Sequence record: NC_019720.1
Direction: 5' to 3' (one strand)
DNA: 44,120 nt
DNA from: Enterobacteria phage mEp213
Part shown: positions 7,944 to 12,705 of the stretch, one piece after another
Layout of the letters: each line of letters begins with the position of its first letter
How positions within the stretch are numbered: the first letter of the stretch is position 1
Program-made: the position numbers and the translations under genes
Notes under the pieces: generated by a model
The model's database searches: none
Told to the model about the DNA's origin: nothing
Seen by the model: the letters and a program-made list of their open reading frames with translations, nothing else

Positions 7944-8687
7944 ATGCCTACTCCAAACCCGCTGGCCCCCGTGAAAGGTGCCGGTACCACACTCTGGCTT
8001 TACACCGGAACGGGCAACGCTTTCGCTAACCCACTCTCGGATATCGACTGGAACCGCCTGGCGAAAATTAAAGAGCTGACGCCGGGCGAAATGACCGCAG
8101 AATCGTATGACGACACTTACCTCGACGACGAGGATGCCGACTGGAACGCGACGGCCCAGGGGGCAAAATCTGCTGGCGATACCTCGTTCACCCTCGCCTG
8201 GAAGCCGGGCGAAGAAGGGCAAAAAGACCTTGTCGCATGGTTTATTGATGGCTCAGTACGTTATTACAAAATCAAATACCCGAACGGTACCGTCGACGTT
8301 TTCTGTGGCTGGTGCAGCAGCCTGGGTAAAGCCATTCCGGCAAAAGAGGTCATTACCCGTACAGCGAAAATCACCAATACCGGCAAGCCGGAACTGGCAG
8401 AAGAAAGCGGGACCCCGAATATCCCCGTGACCGGCGTTACGCTCGATAAAGCCACGGCAAGCGTGGTCGTCGGCGCAACCACAACGCTCAATGTGACGGT
8501 TAACCCTGCCAGTGCCTCAGATACCTCGTTCCGCGTGGCAACCTCCGACGGGGCAAAAGCAACGGTCACCGTTAGCGGCAACGCGATCACCGTCACCGGC
8601 GTGGCGGCAGGCACCGCTGACGTTATTGTTATGACCAGCGACGGTAATTTCGTTGCGGTCTGCAAAGTCACCGTAACTGCAGCGTAA
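7944..8687 (+). CDS. V: Major tail protein V with C-terminal Ig-like domain
   Basis: [15 protein letters not shown]...ANPLSD.DW.RLAK, NGTVDVF.GW.SS.GKA; Thr/Val-rich C-terminal repeats. Confidence 0.9.
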
Positions 8688-8697
8688 GGAAGGACGC

Positions 8698-9138
8698 ATG
8701 TTTCTGAAAAAAGAGAAGTTCACCTGGCAAACAGAGTCCCTGACCATCTTCGAGCTGTCGGCCCTTCAGCGTATTGAGTTCCTCACGTTTATGGCAAATG
8801 AGGAGAAGGCCGTCAGCGCTGACAGCGATGGCATAAGCGATCAGGAAGTCACGACCCGGCTGATAGGTTCAAATATTCGCTGCGGTGCGCGCTTGATCGC
8901 GATGTCTTTGTGGCATAACGAGCCGGCCGGCACGGATGTGGAAACGTTGTATCAGCAGGTCCTGAGCAGCTGGCCGCCGGAGGCTATCGGCAAAGCCGAA
9001 ATGCAGGTCAAGCTACTATCAGGCATGTTATTCCCCGTTGAAGATGAGAAAGTTGATCATCAGGACGTGGAGGGTTTAACTGACTCCTCTGCTAACGAAG
9101 AATCCGTTACCGCGGAAAAGCCCTTGCCAGCGAGCTGA
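8698..9138 (+). CDS. G: Tail assembly chaperone G
   Basis: MFLK....LSELSALQRIE...AMSLWHN matches lambda gpG. Confidence 0.85.
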   Translation: MFLKKEKFTWQTESLTIFELSALQRIEFLTFMANEEKAVSADSDGISDQEVTTRLIGSNIRCGARLIAMSLWHNEPAGTDVETLYQQVLSSWPPEAIGKAEMQVKLLSGMLFPVEDEKVDHQDVEGLTDSSANEESVTAEKPLPAS

Positions 9139-9461
9139 AGTTTGTCCTGAATCTGGCGCGCGAGTTCGGTCGACCCGACTGGCGCGCCATGCTGGCTGGG
9201 ATGACTTCCAGTGAACTGGGCGACTGGCACCTGTTCTACCGGGAGCATTATTTTCAGGACGCGCAGCTCGATGCGCATTTCTCCGGGCTGCTTTATTCCA
9301 TCTCCACTCTTTTCTTCCGCGATCCGGAACTTACCCCCGCACATTTCAGCCTGCTTTCTCCTTCGGAAAGCGTCATCAGCGATGACGAGCCGGATGATGA
9401 TACGCTGATGACCGCCGCTGAGGGGATAACAGGAGGTATCCGATATGGCCCAGCAGATTAG
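8698..9461 (+). CDS. T: Tail assembly chaperone GT fusion via programmed -1 frameshift (slip near 9114-9120)
   Basis: The -1 frame is open from 9096 to 9461 and overlaps the G 3' end; G GAA AAG sits at the lambda G-T slip position; T-frame stop overlaps H start. Confidence 0.65.
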
Positions 9462-12400
9462 CGACCTGGTCATCAACCTTGATGTCGACAGTGCTACTTT
9501 TAGCGAGCAGGTTGCCCGTATAAAGGGGCAGCTAACCGGAATGGGGGACGAATCCGAAAAAGTCCGCACACGTATGCAGCAGGCCGCAGAATTGCAGGCC
9601 TCGGCGCTTGCTAAAGCAGCGGCAGGCAGCGGTGCGGCCATGTCGGATATGTTGGCTCAGCAGTCAACGGCTGCAGCTGGTCTTAGCGCTGACATGCAAA
9701 AAGTCGGCGAGTCCGTTGAACAAACCTACCAGCGAGTGGCTGGATTAAGTGAGCAACTCAGGGAGAACGCATCCCGGGCATCAGCGCTTGCGCAGCAACA
9801 GGATGCGCTGGCGGCGTCGTTCTATCGACAGATTGACGGCGTGAGGTCGCTGACCGGAGAAACGGACTCTCTGTCGTCGGTTCAGGAGCAATTCCGGAAG
9901 GCCCGTGCGCAGGGGAATATCACGCAGCAGGATTATCTTGCGCTGATATCCCAGACCACAGCCCGGCAAAAAGAACTACAACAGGCCGAAGAAAAAGCCA
10001 GTCAGGCTCGATCCCGGTTTCTTCAACAGCTCAAAACCCAGGTTGAAGAACAAAAATTATCCAGAACCGAATTACTGAATCTGAAGGCCGCGCAACTGGG
10101 TGTAAGTGAAGAAGCTGCACCACTTATTGCAAGACTTCAGGAACAGGAAAATGCATGGAGAAAAGGAACGCTCAGTGCCGGGCAGTATCGCCAGGCGATC
10201 CGTATGTTACCCGCTCAGTTTACGGATATTGCAACCTCGATAGCAGGTGGAATGCCGCTGTGGATGGTCCTGATGCAGCAGGGCGGGCAAATCAGCGATT
10301 CATTTGGTGGAGTCGGTAATCTTTTCCAGATTATCAAAGAAGAATTACTGGGGATTAAATCATCCGCAGATGAATCTGAGGAATCACTTTCTGAAAACGC
10401 CAATGCACTGGCGGAGAATGCAGAACACAGCAGAGGTTTTCTGAGGGCTCTGACTCCAGTACGTCTTGCTATGGGTGGACTTGTCGGGGGGCTGGCACTA
10501 TTGGCCTTTGCCTGGTACAAAGGCAGCAGTGAAGCATCTGAATTTAATAAACAGCTTATTCTGACGGGGAATTATGCCGGTAAGACAACCGGACAGCTGA
10601 GCGATTTAGCTCGCAAAATTTCAGAAACGGCAGGTGTCACCACCGGAAATGCAGCTGCCACTCTTGCGAAGGTTGTTGGTAGCGGGCAGTTCCGGGGAAA
10701 CCAGCTGGAATACATCACCACGGCGGCTGCAGCAATGGAGGACGCGGTCGGGCAGTCGGTTGATAAAACGCTCGCGAACTTTAAGAAATTATATGATTCG
10801 CCAACACAGGCGTCAGAAGAGCTTAACAGTCAGCTACATTACCTCTCGGCAGCTCAGTTCCAATATATTTCCGAGCTTGAGCGCAGGGGGGATAAAGAGG
10901 CGGCAGGAGAAAAGGCCGCGCAGGCTTACAGTGCTGCTGAGCAACAGCGAAGCCAGCAGATACTTGATAACCTGGGTTTGATAGATCGCTTTGTTCGTGG
11001 TGTAACGGATACCTGGGGTGCTTACTGGGATGCCGCCCTGGGTATTGGTCGCCAGCAAACGGCCAGCGATCAGCTGGAGTCTGTCAGGGCGCGGATAAAA
11101 ACACTGACGGATAACACCCGGCCGGGTGTTTTTGGAATGGGCAATACTGGTGATGGGGGGGCCGCAGAAAAAGAGTTGGCCTCATTACGTCAGAAGGAAA
11201 GTGAACTTACTTTTGTAATTCGTTCACAGGAGGGGTACAACCAGGCACAGGCCAAATCGCAGCAGTTGAATACTGAAGGAGTGAAAGCCCAGGGGATACT
11301 GAACAAGTTCCTGGACGCAGGCGCGAGCAAAGCACAGAAAAGGGCAGACGCGGAAAGGGAACTCAATAAAGCCATCACAACCAATGCTGAACTGGTCAAA
11401 AAAACGCAATTTCTTCCTGAGGGCCAGCGCGTTAAGCCTCTCAGTAAGGCAGAAATTGCTCAGGCCAGAAAGGGAATAGAGGAACTCTATAAAGATCCAA
11501 AAGTCCCTAAATCAAAAGGATATACCGCCCCTGCTGGTGACAAAGCCGAGGAAAAGGCGCAGGCCGAACTTCTCACCCTTCAGGCCCAGCTTAAAACGCT
11601 CGAGCAGCATATCAGCGTAAACGACGTTATCAGCAAACAGCGTCAGGATCTCTGGCAGACTGAAAATCAGTTCACCGTTCTGCAGGAGGCCGCGGGGCGT
11701 CGTCAGCTTACGGCGCAGGAAAAATCACTGCTGGCGCACAAGGAAGAAACGCTCGAGTACAAGCGGCAGCTGGCCGACCTGGGAGATAAGGTTGCTCAAC
11801 AGCAAAAGCTCAACCAACTGGCCGATCAGGCCGTGAAGTTTGAGCAGCAGCAAAAAGCCGCCAGGGCGGGCCTGCAGGCTCAGTCTGAGGGGGTATCCAC
11901 CCGGGAAGCAGGGCGACAAACTACGCTGCAGCGCCTCAGCGAAAGCTATTCGTACAACCCTCAGGCGCAGCAAAAGGTTCTCGAAGAGCAAAGGGCGACG
12001 TTCGAGGCTGAAGATGCCCTGCGTGCAAACTGGCTGGCCGGAGCGAAACAGGGCTGGGCCGAATATCAGGATTCAGCGACAAACGTTTTCAGCTCTGTTC
12101 AGCAGATTTCGCAGGCAACGTTCAGCGGGCTGGCGGGCCAGCTTACCAGCCTGACGACAACCGGGAAGGCGAGCTTCAGGGAATTCACCAGCTCGATCCT
12201 TAAAATGATTGTGTCCGTTATCAACCAGCTGCTGGTGGCTTACACCATCCAGAGTGCAATGGGCTGGGTTAGCGGCGGGGCGAAAACCTCCTCTGCCGGT
12301 CAGTCATTCGCGGTCCCGTCATACCGGCCACAGGGTTTTGACGTGGGCGGTTTTACCGGGCACGGCGGCAAGTACGAGCCAGCCGGTATCGTTCACCGCG

Positions 12401-12705
12401 GGGAATTCGTCTTCACCAAAGAATCAACCAGCCGCATCGGCGTGGCTAATCTCTATCGCCTGATGCGCGGGTATGCCTCGGGTGGTCTGGTCGGCGGCGG
12501 GAGCGCAGTCGGTGCTGGTATGGGGGGGATAAGTGTTTATGCCCCAGTCAGCATCAGCCAGCAGGGGGGAGACGGAAACATAAATCAGGCGAACGCCACG
12601 GGGACGGCGAAACAGCTGCAGGCGATTGTTCAGCAGACAATCACCGAGCGACTGAAAAAAGAAATGTCCGCAGGCGGCGTGCTTTATTCGAGGAGGACAC
12701 AGTGA
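9445..12705 (+). CDS. H: Tail tape measure protein H
   Basis: 1086 aa; long helical Ala/Gln-rich body; lambda gpH-like N- and C-terminal motifs (QYRQAIRMLPAQFTD, GKYEPAGIVHRGEFVFTKE). Confidence 0.9.
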   Translation: MAQQISDLVINLDVDSATFSEQVARIKGQLTGMGDESEKVRTRMQQAAELQASALAKAAAGSGAAMSDMLAQQSTAAAGLSADMQKVGESVEQTYQRVAGLSEQLRENASRASALAQQQDALAASFYRQIDGVRSLTGETDSLSSVQEQFRKARAQGNITQQDYLALISQTTARQKELQQAEEKASQARSRFLQQLKTQVEEQKLSRTELLNLKAAQLGVSEEAAPLIARLQEQENAWRKGTLSAGQYRQAIRMLPAQFTDIATSIAGGMPLWMVLMQQGGQISDSFGGVGNLFQIIKEELLGIKSSADESEESLSENANALAENAEHSRGFLRALTPVRLAMGGLVGGLALLAFAWYKGSSEASEFNKQLILTGNYAGKTTGQLSDLARKISETAGVTTGNAAATLAKVVGSGQFRGNQLEYITTAAAAMEDAVGQSVDKTLANFKKLYDSPTQASEELNSQLHYLSAAQFQYISELERRGDKEAAGEKAAQAYSAAEQQRSQQILDNLGLIDRFVRGVTDTWGAYWDAALGIGRQQTASDQLESVRARIKTLTDNTRPGVFGMGNTGDGGAAEKELASLRQKESELTFVIRSQEGYNQAQAKSQQLNTEGVKAQGILNKFLDAGASKAQKRADAERELNKAITTNAELVKKTQFLPEGQRVKPLSKAEIAQARKGIEELYKDPKVPKSKGYTAPAGDKAEEKAQAELLTLQAQLKTLEQHISVNDVISKQRQDLWQTENQFTVLQEAAGRRQLTAQEKSLLAHKEETLEYKRQLADLGDKVAQQQKLNQLADQAVKFEQQQKAARAGLQAQSEGVSTREAGRQTTLQRLSESYSYNPQAQQKVLEEQRATFEAEDALRANWLAGAKQGWAEYQDSATNVFSSVQQISQATFSGLAGQLTSLTTTGKASFREFTSSILKMIVSVINQLLVAYTIQSAMGWVSGGAKTSSAGQSFAVPSYRPQGFDVGGFTGHGGKYEPAGIVHRGEFVFTKESTSRIGVANLYRLMRGYASGGLVGGGSAVGAGMGGISVYAPVSISQQGGDGNINQANATGTAKQLQAIVQQTITERLKKEMSAGGVLYSRRTQ

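What the first reader, a model, noticed from the sequence alone, without database searches (positions are those of the whole stretch)
9096..9140. G-T programmed frameshift window with a non-lambda slippery sequence
The T frame opens at 9096 and the G frame stops at 9138, so the -1 shift must occur in this 42-nt window. The only Lys-slippery candidate is G GAA AAG (9114-9120), where lambda has G GGA AAG. The P-site codon would re-pair GAA to GGA, which is less canonical, so the shift site or its efficiency may differ from lambda.
Basis: partly seen in the sequence, partly recalled or inferred. Interest (0 to 1): 0.35.

Follow-up and report, generated by a model that had tools for sequence, protein, structure and literature searches.

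The report
Known G-T tail frameshift site, GGAAAAG variant
This is the ordinary programmed -1 ribosomal frameshift that lambda-like phages use to make the tail assembly protein GT; its slippery heptamer GGAAAAG differs by one base from lambda's, but it is already annotated in sister phages (N15, phi80, LLS) and is the commonest form in this protein family.

Summary
G (8698-9138) stops at TGA 9136-9138. The -1 frame opens at 9096 after TAA 9093-9095 and runs to 9461. GGAAAAG (9114-9120, read G_GAA_AAG) is the only in-frame site in the overlap where the A-site tRNA can re-pair. The window is phage mEp213, whose structural arm is identical to mEp043. The heptamer sits at the position of lambda's G_GGA_AAG, five codons before the G stop. 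GGAAAAG is already annotated as the -1 slippery sequence in N15, phi80 and LLS. In 79 distinct G-T junctions of the T family, 70 carry GGAAAAG and none has another canonical in-frame heptamer in its overlap. In one Providencia prophage the overlap is only 16 nt. Third-codon-position variation switches from the G frame to the T frame exactly at the heptamer. The first G, a four-fold degenerate position, is G in 70 of 71 contexts. I found no conserved upstream Shine-Dalgarno-like sequence or downstream structure specific to GGAAAAG phages. Published in vitro work rates G_GAA_AAG less slippery than G_GGA_AAG, so efficiency may be below lambda's roughly 3%; this is unmeasured. Verdict: real, functional, already known, low novelty.

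The parts
7944..8687 (+). Major tail tube protein (lambda V-like, with a C-terminal Big_2 Ig-like domain). This is the upstream context gene.
   Evidence: Pfam Phage_TTP_12 E = 3.8e-67 and Big_2 E = 1.3e-15; annotated 'major tail protein V' in mEp213.
8698..9138 (+). Gene G, the tail assembly chaperone (146 aa). This is the zero-frame product.
   Evidence: ORF. Pfam PF06894 Phage_TAC_2 E = 2.9e-30. 46% identical to lambda G over the aligned 117 aa (N-terminal part); 38% to N15 gp14 over a 154-column alignment covering the whole protein.
9096..9138 (+). Overlap in which both the G frame and the -1 (T) frame are open. The shift must occur here.
   Evidence: Stop-codon scan: TAA 9093-9095 in the -1 frame and TGA 9136-9138 in the zero frame.
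9114..9120 (+). Slippery heptamer G_GAA_AAG. Zero frame reads Glu-Lys; -1 frame reads GGA_AAA.
   Evidence: It is the only in-frame site with A-site re-pairing. It is homologous to lambda GGGAAAG. The same heptamer is annotated as the -1 slippery sequence in phi80, LLS and N15. The AAA core is invariant in 79 of 79 distinct contexts. The first G is present in 70 of 71 contexts at a four-fold degenerate site.
9120..9461 (+). T segment of the GT fusion in the -1 frame. Predicted GT = join(8698..9120, 9120..9461), 254 aa, with junction ...ESVTAEK|ALASELKF...
   Evidence: Translation. Pfam PF06223 Phage_tail_T E = 2.1e-13. T-frame residues are invariant from the heptamer onward, upstream of the first ATG at 9189. 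The wobble phase switches to this frame at the heptamer.
9445..12705 (+). Tape measure protein (lambda H-like). This is the downstream context gene; its start overlaps the end of T by 17 nt.
   Evidence: ORF; Pfam TMP_2 E = 1.1e-60 and Tape_meas_lam_C E = 5.2e-20.

Best explanation
A small fraction of ribosomes translating G slip back one nucleotide on G_GAA_AAG (9114-9120). They then continue in the -1 frame to make the 254-aa GT fusion, with junction ...TAEK|ALASELK.... Most ribosomes stop at TGA 9136 and make G.

The slip is most likely a two-tRNA event. A-site tRNA-Lys (anticodon mnm5s2UUU) moves from AAG to its preferred AAA. P-site tRNA-Glu (mnm5s2UUC) moves from GAA to GGA, keeping Watson-Crick pairs at codon positions 1 and 3 and a G.U pair at position 2.

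By analogy with lambda, G and the G part of GT coat the tape measure protein, and the T part recruits the tail tube protein. The fixed G:GT ratio is set by the frameshift efficiency.

Shown here: the geometry, the homology, the conservation of the site and the frame switch. Inferred: the tRNA mechanics and the biological role. Unknown: the efficiency.
For: - Frames and the unique candidate site.
- G and T family membership and V-G-T-H synteny.
- The heptamer is at the lambda-homologous position, five codons before the G stop.
- The same heptamer is annotated as the -1 slippery site in phi80 FN582354, LLS PQ299149 and N15 AF064539.
- 70 of 79 distinct junction contexts carry GGAAAAG (80 contexts before dropping the degraded Shigella flexneri copy L057). 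The variants at the same position are all slippery types: GGGAAAG, GGGAAAA and AAAAAAG.
- No other canonical in-frame heptamer occurs in any overlap. The overlap shrinks to 16 nt in Providencia heimbachae L059, where the -1 frame opens 6 nt before the heptamer and TAG follows it directly.
- 25 T-frame codons between the heptamer and the first ATG (9189) are highly conserved and contain no ATG, GTG or TTG.
- The positions of highest variability switch from zero-frame wobble to -1-frame wobble exactly at the heptamer.
- The heptamer's first base is a four-fold degenerate wobble position. It is G in 70 of 71 contexts, while neighbouring four-fold sites show all four bases. This argues that P-site re-pairing to GGA matters.
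- Literature: lambda G:GT is about 30:1, and the NNA_AAG and X_XXA_AAG rules for E. coli (PMC5009743; PMC4066793).
Against: - No GT protein has been observed for this phage, and I found no published measurement for any GGAAAAG phage.
- In a reconstituted E. coli system, AUG_GAA_AAG gave mainly zero-frame product (Peng 2019).
- The A_AAG tetramer alone is barely above background without a stimulator (Sharma 2014).
- I found no conserved stimulator.
- One relative, L138, has AGAAAAG, where P-site re-pairing is worse. So the first G may not be strictly essential.
- The compared sequences are related, so conservation counts overstate independent evidence.
Confidence: 0.88

Rival explanations
1. 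Single-tRNA slippage. Only tRNA-Lys slips on A_AAG, either in the A site or in the P site while the next codon is slow to decode. tRNA-Glu does not re-pair. The site would then work as a hexanucleotide or tetranucleotide NNA_AAG motif, like B. subtilis cdd or IS1222, and not as a heptamer. The product would be the same.
For: [quoted passage not shown]
- NNA_AAG frameshifting is documented in bacteria (PMC5009743).
- Relative L138 has AGAAAAG.
- The codon after AAG is CCC (Pro) in 54 of 70 contexts and a TAG stop in two Providencia prophages. Both could pause the ribosome with tRNA-Lys in the P site; that step is my inference.
Against: - The first G of the heptamer is a four-fold degenerate wobble base, yet it is G in 70 of 71 contexts. 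That is not expected if only A_AAG mattered.
- All other variants seen at this position restore a canonical X_XXA_AAR heptamer.
- A_AAG alone needs a strong stimulator to reach percent-level efficiency, and none was found.
Confidence: 0.25
2. There is no frameshift. T is made on its own from the internal ATG at 9189, as the mEp043 and mEp213 GenBank records annotate it, and the open -1 frame upstream is incidental.
For: The records JQ182734 and PV340538 annotate T as a stand-alone CDS. An ATG exists at 9189.
Against: - The 25 T-frame codons upstream of that ATG (GKALASELKFVLNLAREFGRPDWRA) include 14 invariant residues across lambda, N15, Klebsiella and this phage.
- Wobble-phase variation is in the T frame from the heptamer onward.
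- There is no start codon between 9096 and 9189 in that frame.
- Sister records annotate joined GT CDSs.
Confidence: 0.03
3. The frame change is made at the RNA level, by RNA polymerase slippage on the A run, and not by the ribosome.
For: The heptamer contains a run of four A residues.
Against: - By my own knowledge of the field, known bacterial transcriptional slippage needs much longer homopolymer runs, about 8-9 or more.
- The conserved pattern is codon-phased (G_GAA_AAG, with the final G or A and the first G conserved), which fits tRNA re-pairing.
- Lambda's homologous site is established as ribosomal frameshifting (PMC5009743).
Confidence: 0.01
4. GGAAAAG phages make up for the weaker heptamer with a dedicated cis stimulator: a downstream RNA structure or an upstream SD-like sequence.
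For: - Window 9114-9215 folds at -45.3 kcal/mol, z = -3.4 against shuffles. It has an outer stem starting 6 nt after the heptamer and an inner GC hairpin at 9154-9189.
- The hairpin is more stable than synonymous-codon resamples, z about -2.5.
- One Sodalis prophage has AGGAGGUGG 13 nt upstream of the heptamer.
Against: - The 55 nt downstream are not unusually structured: mean z = +0.23 for 70 GGAAAAG contexts and +0.36 for GGGAAAG contexts.
- The RNAalifold consensus is only -8.0 kcal/mol, with a covariation term of -0.67.
- The middle pair of the outer stem is broken in 31 of 70 sequences, including N15-type and Klebsiella-type phages.
- The local GCCAG/CTGGC hairpin shows no real compensatory change: one cell only, and 34 of 500 shuffles do as well.
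- The inner hairpin starts 34 nt from the heptamer. It lies in an invariant peptide and is equally present in lambda.
- No SD-like sequence precedes the heptamer in the window (best duplex -1.0 kcal/mol). The family mean of -2.6 is weaker than the shuffled mean of -3.4.
Confidence: 0.1

Closest known systems
Phage lambda G/GT programmed -1 frameshift (G_GGA_AAG; Levin, Hendrix and Casjens 1993; Xu, Hendrix and Duda 2004, 2013, 2014, as cited in PMC5009743)
   Same: - Same gene order V-G-T-H and the same Pfam families for G and T.
- The heptamer is at the homologous position, five codons before the G stop.
- Same A-site codon (AAG to AAA).
- T is 59% identical to lambda T and G is 46% identical to lambda G.
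- No canonical stimulator is evident in either phage.
   Different: - The third base of the heptamer is A, not G. The P-site codon is therefore GAA (Glu, tRNA-Glu) and not GGA (Gly). After the slip it pairs with GGA through a G.U pair at the second position, so it is not fully cognate.
- T is shorter: 115 aa against 146 aa from the heptamer onward.
N15 gp14/gp15, phi80 gene 14/G-T and phage LLS genes 11/12: annotated -1 frameshift at GGAAAAG
   Same: - Identical heptamer, identical position and near-identical flanks (...GTTACNGCGGAAAAGCCCT...).
- These records annotate it as 'slippery sequence for -1 translational frameshift'.
- DNA identity over G-T is 87-89% to phi80 and LLS. Over the T part it is about 77% to N15.
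   Different: Nothing of substance. The window's own records (mEp043, mEp213) simply lack the GT join annotation. The G N-terminal region is mosaic relative to N15.
Hexanucleotide or tetranucleotide NNA_AAG / A_AAG -1 frameshift sites (B. subtilis cdd A_CGA_AAG, IS1222 G_CGA_AAG; Sharma et al. 2014)
   Same: A-site AAG-to-AAA re-pairing by the single E. coli tRNA-Lys is the driving step. P-site re-pairing is imperfect.
   Different: Here the P-site tRNA can still form two Watson-Crick pairs plus a G.U pair, and the base that allows this is conserved. The IS examples rely on strong downstream stimulators, and none was found here.
E. coli dnaX -1 frameshift (A_AAA_AAG with an upstream SD and a downstream hairpin)
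   Same: Same A-site codon and the same tRNA-Lys slippage.
   Different: There is no SD-like element 6-17 nt upstream and no conserved hairpin 5-9 nt downstream. Output is expected to be a few percent or less, not about 50%.

Membership tests
Lambda-type tail assembly chaperone G/GT -1 programmed frameshift | Two overlapping ORFs lie between the major tail tube gene and the tape measure gene, with the second in the -1 frame | tested here: met
   V 7944-8687, G 8698-9138, -1 frame 9096-9461, H 9445-12705.
Lambda-type tail assembly chaperone G/GT -1 programmed frameshift | The upstream ORF belongs to the lambda gpG tail assembly chaperone family | tested here: met
   PF06894 Phage_TAC_2, E = 2.9e-30, 105 bits against a cut-off of 27.
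Lambda-type tail assembly chaperone G/GT -1 programmed frameshift | The downstream frame encodes the T domain, and its conserved part has no start codon of its own | tested here: met
   PF06223 Phage_tail_T, E = 2.1e-13. There are 14 invariant residues within the 25 codons between the heptamer and the first ATG at 9189. No ATG, GTG or TTG occurs there.
Lambda-type tail assembly chaperone G/GT -1 programmed frameshift | An in-frame slippery sequence lies in the overlap and is conserved at the homologous position in relatives | tested here: met
   GGAAAAG at 9114-9120. The same column holds GGAAAAG, GGGAAAG, GGGAAAA or AAAAAAG in 78 of 79 distinct loci, and the AAA core is invariant.
Lambda-type tail assembly chaperone G/GT -1 programmed frameshift | The heptamer has the strict canonical form X_XXY_YYZ | tested here: not met
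   The first three bases are G, G, A, so the P-site codon GAA re-pairs to GGA with a second-position G.U pair. This is a near-canonical variant. Strict canonicity does not define the GT family: the N15, phi80 and LLS records annotate this same heptamer.
Lambda-type tail assembly chaperone G/GT -1 programmed frameshift | A GT fusion protein is made at a low fixed ratio to G and is required for tail assembly | not testable with these tools
   This needs protein detection or genetics. Lambda's ratio of about 30:1 comes from the literature (PMC5009743).
Single-tRNA A_AAG / NNA_AAG -1 slippage sites | An in-frame A_AAG is decoded by the single tRNA-Lys(UUU) | tested here: met
   A_AAG lies at 9117-9120 in the G frame. 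The host is E. coli, which has a single tRNA-Lys for both AAA and AAG (PMC5009743).
Single-tRNA A_AAG / NNA_AAG -1 slippage sites | The base 5' of the NNA codon is free to vary, because no P-site re-pairing is needed | tested here: not met
   That base is a four-fold degenerate wobble position, yet it is G in 70 of 71 contexts. Neighbouring four-fold sites vary freely.
dnaX/IS-type stimulated -1 frameshift | An SD-like sequence lies about 6-17 nt upstream of the motif | tested here: not met
   The best anti-SD duplex in -22..-4 is -1.0 kcal/mol in the window. The family mean of -2.6 is weaker than the shuffled mean of -3.4. The only clear case is a Sodalis prophage.
dnaX/IS-type stimulated -1 frameshift | A conserved hairpin or pseudoknot starts 5-9 nt downstream and is supported by covariation | tested here: not met
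   Downstream 55-nt z-scores are about 0. The alifold consensus is -8.0 kcal/mol with negligible covariation. Candidate stems are broken or invariant. The only stable hairpin starts 34 nt downstream.

The most novel reading that the evidence does not exclude
G_GAA_AAG behaves as a poor, one-tRNA slippery sequence in a purified E. coli system. Yet it is the majority, and possibly ancestral, GT shift site across enterobacterial lambda/N15/phi80-type phages. The most novel reading not excluded is one of two. Either in vivo it reaches a lambda-like few percent through an unrecognised stimulator, or these phages assemble tails with a much lower GT:G ratio than lambda. Candidate stimulators are the conserved GC hairpin at 9154-9189, the following CCC codon, or the conserved EPVTAEK nascent peptide. 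Either outcome would revise the idea of one fixed, finely balanced ratio.
Probability: 0.15. Interest if true: 0.4.

Novelty: already known. Interest (0 to 1): 0.15.

Why it matters
Practically, it matters for annotation. The GenBank records of this very phage (mEp043, mEp213) list T as a stand-alone ORF starting at an internal ATG. RefSeq marks T as a truncated pseudogene in E. coli prophages with this G-T type, including Nissle 1917. The correct product is a 254-aa GT fusion made by a -1 shift at 9114-9120.

Scientifically, the survey shows that lambda's textbook G_GGA_AAG is the minority form. G_GAA_AAG dominates the family even though it performs poorly in vitro. That leaves a small, testable question about how much GT these phages make and need. 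It is not a new mechanism.

Tried and rejected
1. Downstream stimulatory structure. The 102-nt fold looked striking (z = -3.4), but it did not hold up.
   - Family-wide 55-nt z-scores are about 0.
   - The RNAalifold consensus is weak.
   - Pair counts show broken or invariant stems and no real covariation.
   - The stable inner hairpin is 34 nt away, lies in an invariant peptide and is shared with lambda.
2. Upstream SD-like stimulator. None in the window or the family, except one Sodalis prophage.
3. The phi80 'IR2' repeat features under the BLAST match are about 260 nt downstream and unrelated.
4. Alternative slip sites. No other canonical in-frame heptamer occurs in any of 79 overlaps.
5. 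Literature.
   - Full-text searches for GGAAAAG with 'slippery' or 'frameshift' returned nothing relevant to phages.
   - Xu 2004, Xu 2013 and Licznar 2003 are not held in the library. What I say about them rests on the Atkins 2016 review or on my own memory, and is marked as such.
6. The heptamer's raw frequency is not informative: 9 occurrences observed against 6.9 expected.

Full report
**Observation**

- Gene G runs from ATG 8698 to TGA 9136-9138.
- The -1 frame has its last stop at TAA 9093-9095. It is open from 9096 to TAG 9459-9461.
- The tape measure gene starts at 9445.
- I enumerated every in-frame heptamer in the 9096-9138 overlap. Only GGAAAAG (9114-9120, read G_GAA_AAG) lets the A-site tRNA keep its first two pairs after a -1 slip (AAG to AAA).
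- At that site the P-site codon goes from GAA to GGA, matching at positions 1 and 3.
- The heptamer itself is not rare: 9 copies in the window against 6.9 expected. The evidence therefore has to come from position and conservation.

**Identity of the locus**

- The window is Escherichia phage mEp213, 100% identical over both halves. Its structural arm is identical to mEp043 c-1, with the same coordinates.
- The 7944-8687 product is a lambda-V-type tail tube protein with an Ig-like domain.
- G matches Pfam Phage_TAC_2 (E = 2.9e-30).
- The -1 frame product matches Phage_tail_T (E = 2.1e-13).
- The next gene is a lambda-type tape measure protein.
- This is the classic V-G-T-H arrangement.

**Already annotated in sister phages**

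- GGAAAAG carries a misc_feature as the -1 slippery sequence in phi80 (FN582354, 10194-10200), in LLS (PQ299149, 'minus-one programmed translational frameshift site GGAAAAG') and in N15 (AF064539, 10027-10033). I read the bases under each feature.
- The records of this phage itself annotate T as a separate ORF from an internal ATG.
- RefSeq marks T as an incomplete pseudogene in E. coli prophages of this type, including Nissle 1917.

**Homology with lambda's site**

- In lambda the heptamer GGGAAAG lies five sense codons before the G stop. In the window, phi80, LLS, N15, mEp237, HK225, Flotzy, Eeyore and Enterobacter phage MStein, GGAAAAG lies at exactly that position. The flanks are recognisably homologous (...CCNGTTNCNGC-heptamer-...GAGCTGA...).
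- The two sites differ by a single G/A transition. It changes Gly to Glu in the G tail.

**Survey of the family**

- I aligned T segments and fetched 45 loci from one-genome-per-species bacterial genomes and 80 loci from viral contigs.
- Together with 15 phage records this gave 80 distinct junction contexts: GGAAAAG 70, GGGAAAG 6, GGGAAAA 2, AAAAAAG 1 and AGAAAAG 1. One of the six GGGAAAG contexts is the degraded Shigella flexneri copy (L057, T frame open for only 11 aa). It was dropped from all later analyses, which therefore use 79 contexts.
- Yokenella and three Kluyvera prophages also have GGAAAAG.
- In the per-species set, GGAAAAG occurs in 23 genomes. These include Enterobacter, Citrobacter, Pluralibacter, Kluyvera, Kosakonia, Klebsiella, Sodalis, Providencia and others.
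- GGGAAAG is confined to Escherichia and Shigella, plus many lambda-identical contaminant contigs.
- Caveat: the viral set is the 80 hits closest to my query, so the proportions are biased toward this clade.

**Pinning the site**

- No relative has any other canonical in-frame X_XXY_YYZ heptamer within its overlap (0 in 79 loci).
- The overlap narrows to 16 nt in Providencia heimbachae. There the -1 frame opens 6 nt before the heptamer, and TAG follows it directly.
- The AAA core is invariant in 79 of 79 contexts.
- The positions of highest variability are zero-frame wobble positions upstream (mean entropy 1.38 bits against 0.5-0.6 in the last 18 nt). They are -1-frame wobble positions downstream (0.81 against 0.2-0.3). 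The switch falls in the 9-nt block that contains the heptamer.
- The 25 T-frame codons between the heptamer and the first ATG (9189) contain 14 invariant residues and no start codon. That rules out independent initiation of T.

**Mechanism**

- The driving step is re-pairing of the single E. coli tRNA-Lys from AAG to AAA. This is the general rule for efficient bacterial -1 sites (Sharma 2014, PMC4066793; Atkins 2016, PMC5009743).
- The P-site tRNA-Glu would re-pair from GAA to GGA with a G.U pair at the second position. This follows from the anticodon sequence and is inference.
- The heptamer's first G is a four-fold degenerate wobble base in 99% of contexts, yet it is G in 70 of 71. The neighbouring four-fold sites at -3, -6 and -9 show all four bases.
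- That is nucleotide-level constraint of the kind expected if P-site re-pairing matters. I therefore favour a two-tRNA slip over pure A_AAG slippage.
- The single AGAAAAG relative keeps the single-tRNA model alive. So do the frequent CCC codon (54 of 70) and the TAG codon (2 of 70) after AAG.

**Efficiency and stimulators**

- Peng et al. 2019 (PMC6924986) compared these two sequences in a reconstituted E. coli system. G_GGA_AAG was slippery. AUG_GAA_AAG gave mainly zero-frame product and is called 'less slippery'.
- The A_AAG tetramer alone is barely above background without a stimulator.
- I therefore asked whether GGAAAAG phages carry a compensating stimulator. They do not, as far as these tests can see.
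  - The 55 nt downstream have mean z = +0.23 (n = 70), against +0.36 for GGGAAAG phages.
  - The alignment consensus structure is -8.0 kcal/mol, with a -0.67 covariation term.
  - The window's attractive 102-nt fold (z = -3.4) has an outer stem whose middle pair is broken in 31 of 70 sequences.
  - The local GCCAG/CTGGC hairpin has no meaningful compensatory change.
  - No SD-like sequence precedes the heptamer.
- The inner GC hairpin (9154-9189) is more stable than synonymous-codon resamples in the window, lambda, N15 and a Klebsiella phage (z from -2.4 to -3.2).
- However, that hairpin starts 34 nt from the heptamer, encodes the invariant LAREFGRPDWRA peptide and is shared with lambda. It cannot be a GGAAAAG-specific compensator. 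I leave it as an unexplained side observation.

**Verdict**

- The finding is a real, functional and correctly located G-T -1 frameshift site.
- It is not new. The same heptamer has been annotated in N15, phi80 and LLS, and it is the commonest form in the family.
- What remains open is quantitative: how efficient G_GAA_AAG is in vivo, and whether these phages need less GT than lambda.
- Interest is low (0.15). The practical value is correcting the annotation of T in the mEp043 and mEp213 records and in RefSeq prophages.

Noticed in passing
window 9189-9461; L003, L004; L142, L143: The GenBank records of this phage (mEp043 c-1, mEp213) annotate T as a stand-alone ORF from an internal ATG, with no GT join. 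RefSeq/PGAP marks T as a pseudogene ('incomplete; missing C-terminus') in E. coli prophages of this G-T type, including Nissle 1917. 37 of 5426 complete E. coli genomes carry this G-T type.
   Followed up: partly
window 9154-9189: A GC-rich hairpin (UGGCGCGC...GCGCGCCA) lies inside T, 34 nt 3' of the heptamer. It is more stable than synonymous-codon resamples in the window, lambda, N15 and Klebsiella phage Kp4865-4 (z -2.4 to -3.2), but not in Providencia or Sodalis prophages. It is 95% paired across 70 sequences, yet it lies in the invariant LAREFGRPDWRA peptide. Function unknown.
   Followed up: partly
window ~9100-9112: DNA similarity to N15, mEp237, HK225 and lambda-like Stx phages begins almost exactly at the slip site. 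The T part is 59-73% identical in protein, while the G body is only 38-46% identical. This suggests a mosaic (recombination) boundary near the G/T junction.
   Followed up: partly
L052 1479-1487 (Sodalis sp. RH21 prophage): A perfect Shine-Dalgarno-like AGGAGGUGG lies at -22..-14 before GGAAAAG (duplex -14.3 kcal/mol with the anti-SD). It is the only locus of 79 with a plausible dnaX-style upstream stimulator.
   Followed up: no
L103 1498-1504; L138 1498-1504; L015 685-691; L058 1501-1507: Natural variants occur at the same position. GGGAAAA sits inside an otherwise phi80-like junction (L103) and in Providencia rustigianii (L058). AAAAAAG is found in an Stx1 phage (L015). AGAAAAG in one viral contig (L138) is the only case without a G at heptamer base 1 among Glu-Lys sites.
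   Followed up: partly
L035-L041, L043-L047, L050, L051, L054, L055, L060: Lambda-identical G-T DNA appears on short, low-coverage contigs in assemblies of unrelated bacteria (Neobacillus, Pseudomonas, Kitasatospora, Shewanella, Chromatium, Enterococcus and others). This is most simply lambda DNA contamination of those assemblies.
   Followed up: no
window 9097-9113: The last codons of G before the heptamer (E-x-V-T/S-A, DNA GARCCNGTNWCNGC) are conserved from lambda to phi80 and N15, although the rest of the G C-terminal region is highly variable. More distant GGAAAAG prophages (Providencia, Sodalis, Kosakonia) lack this motif. It could be a linker requirement or a context effect on the shift.
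   Followed up: no
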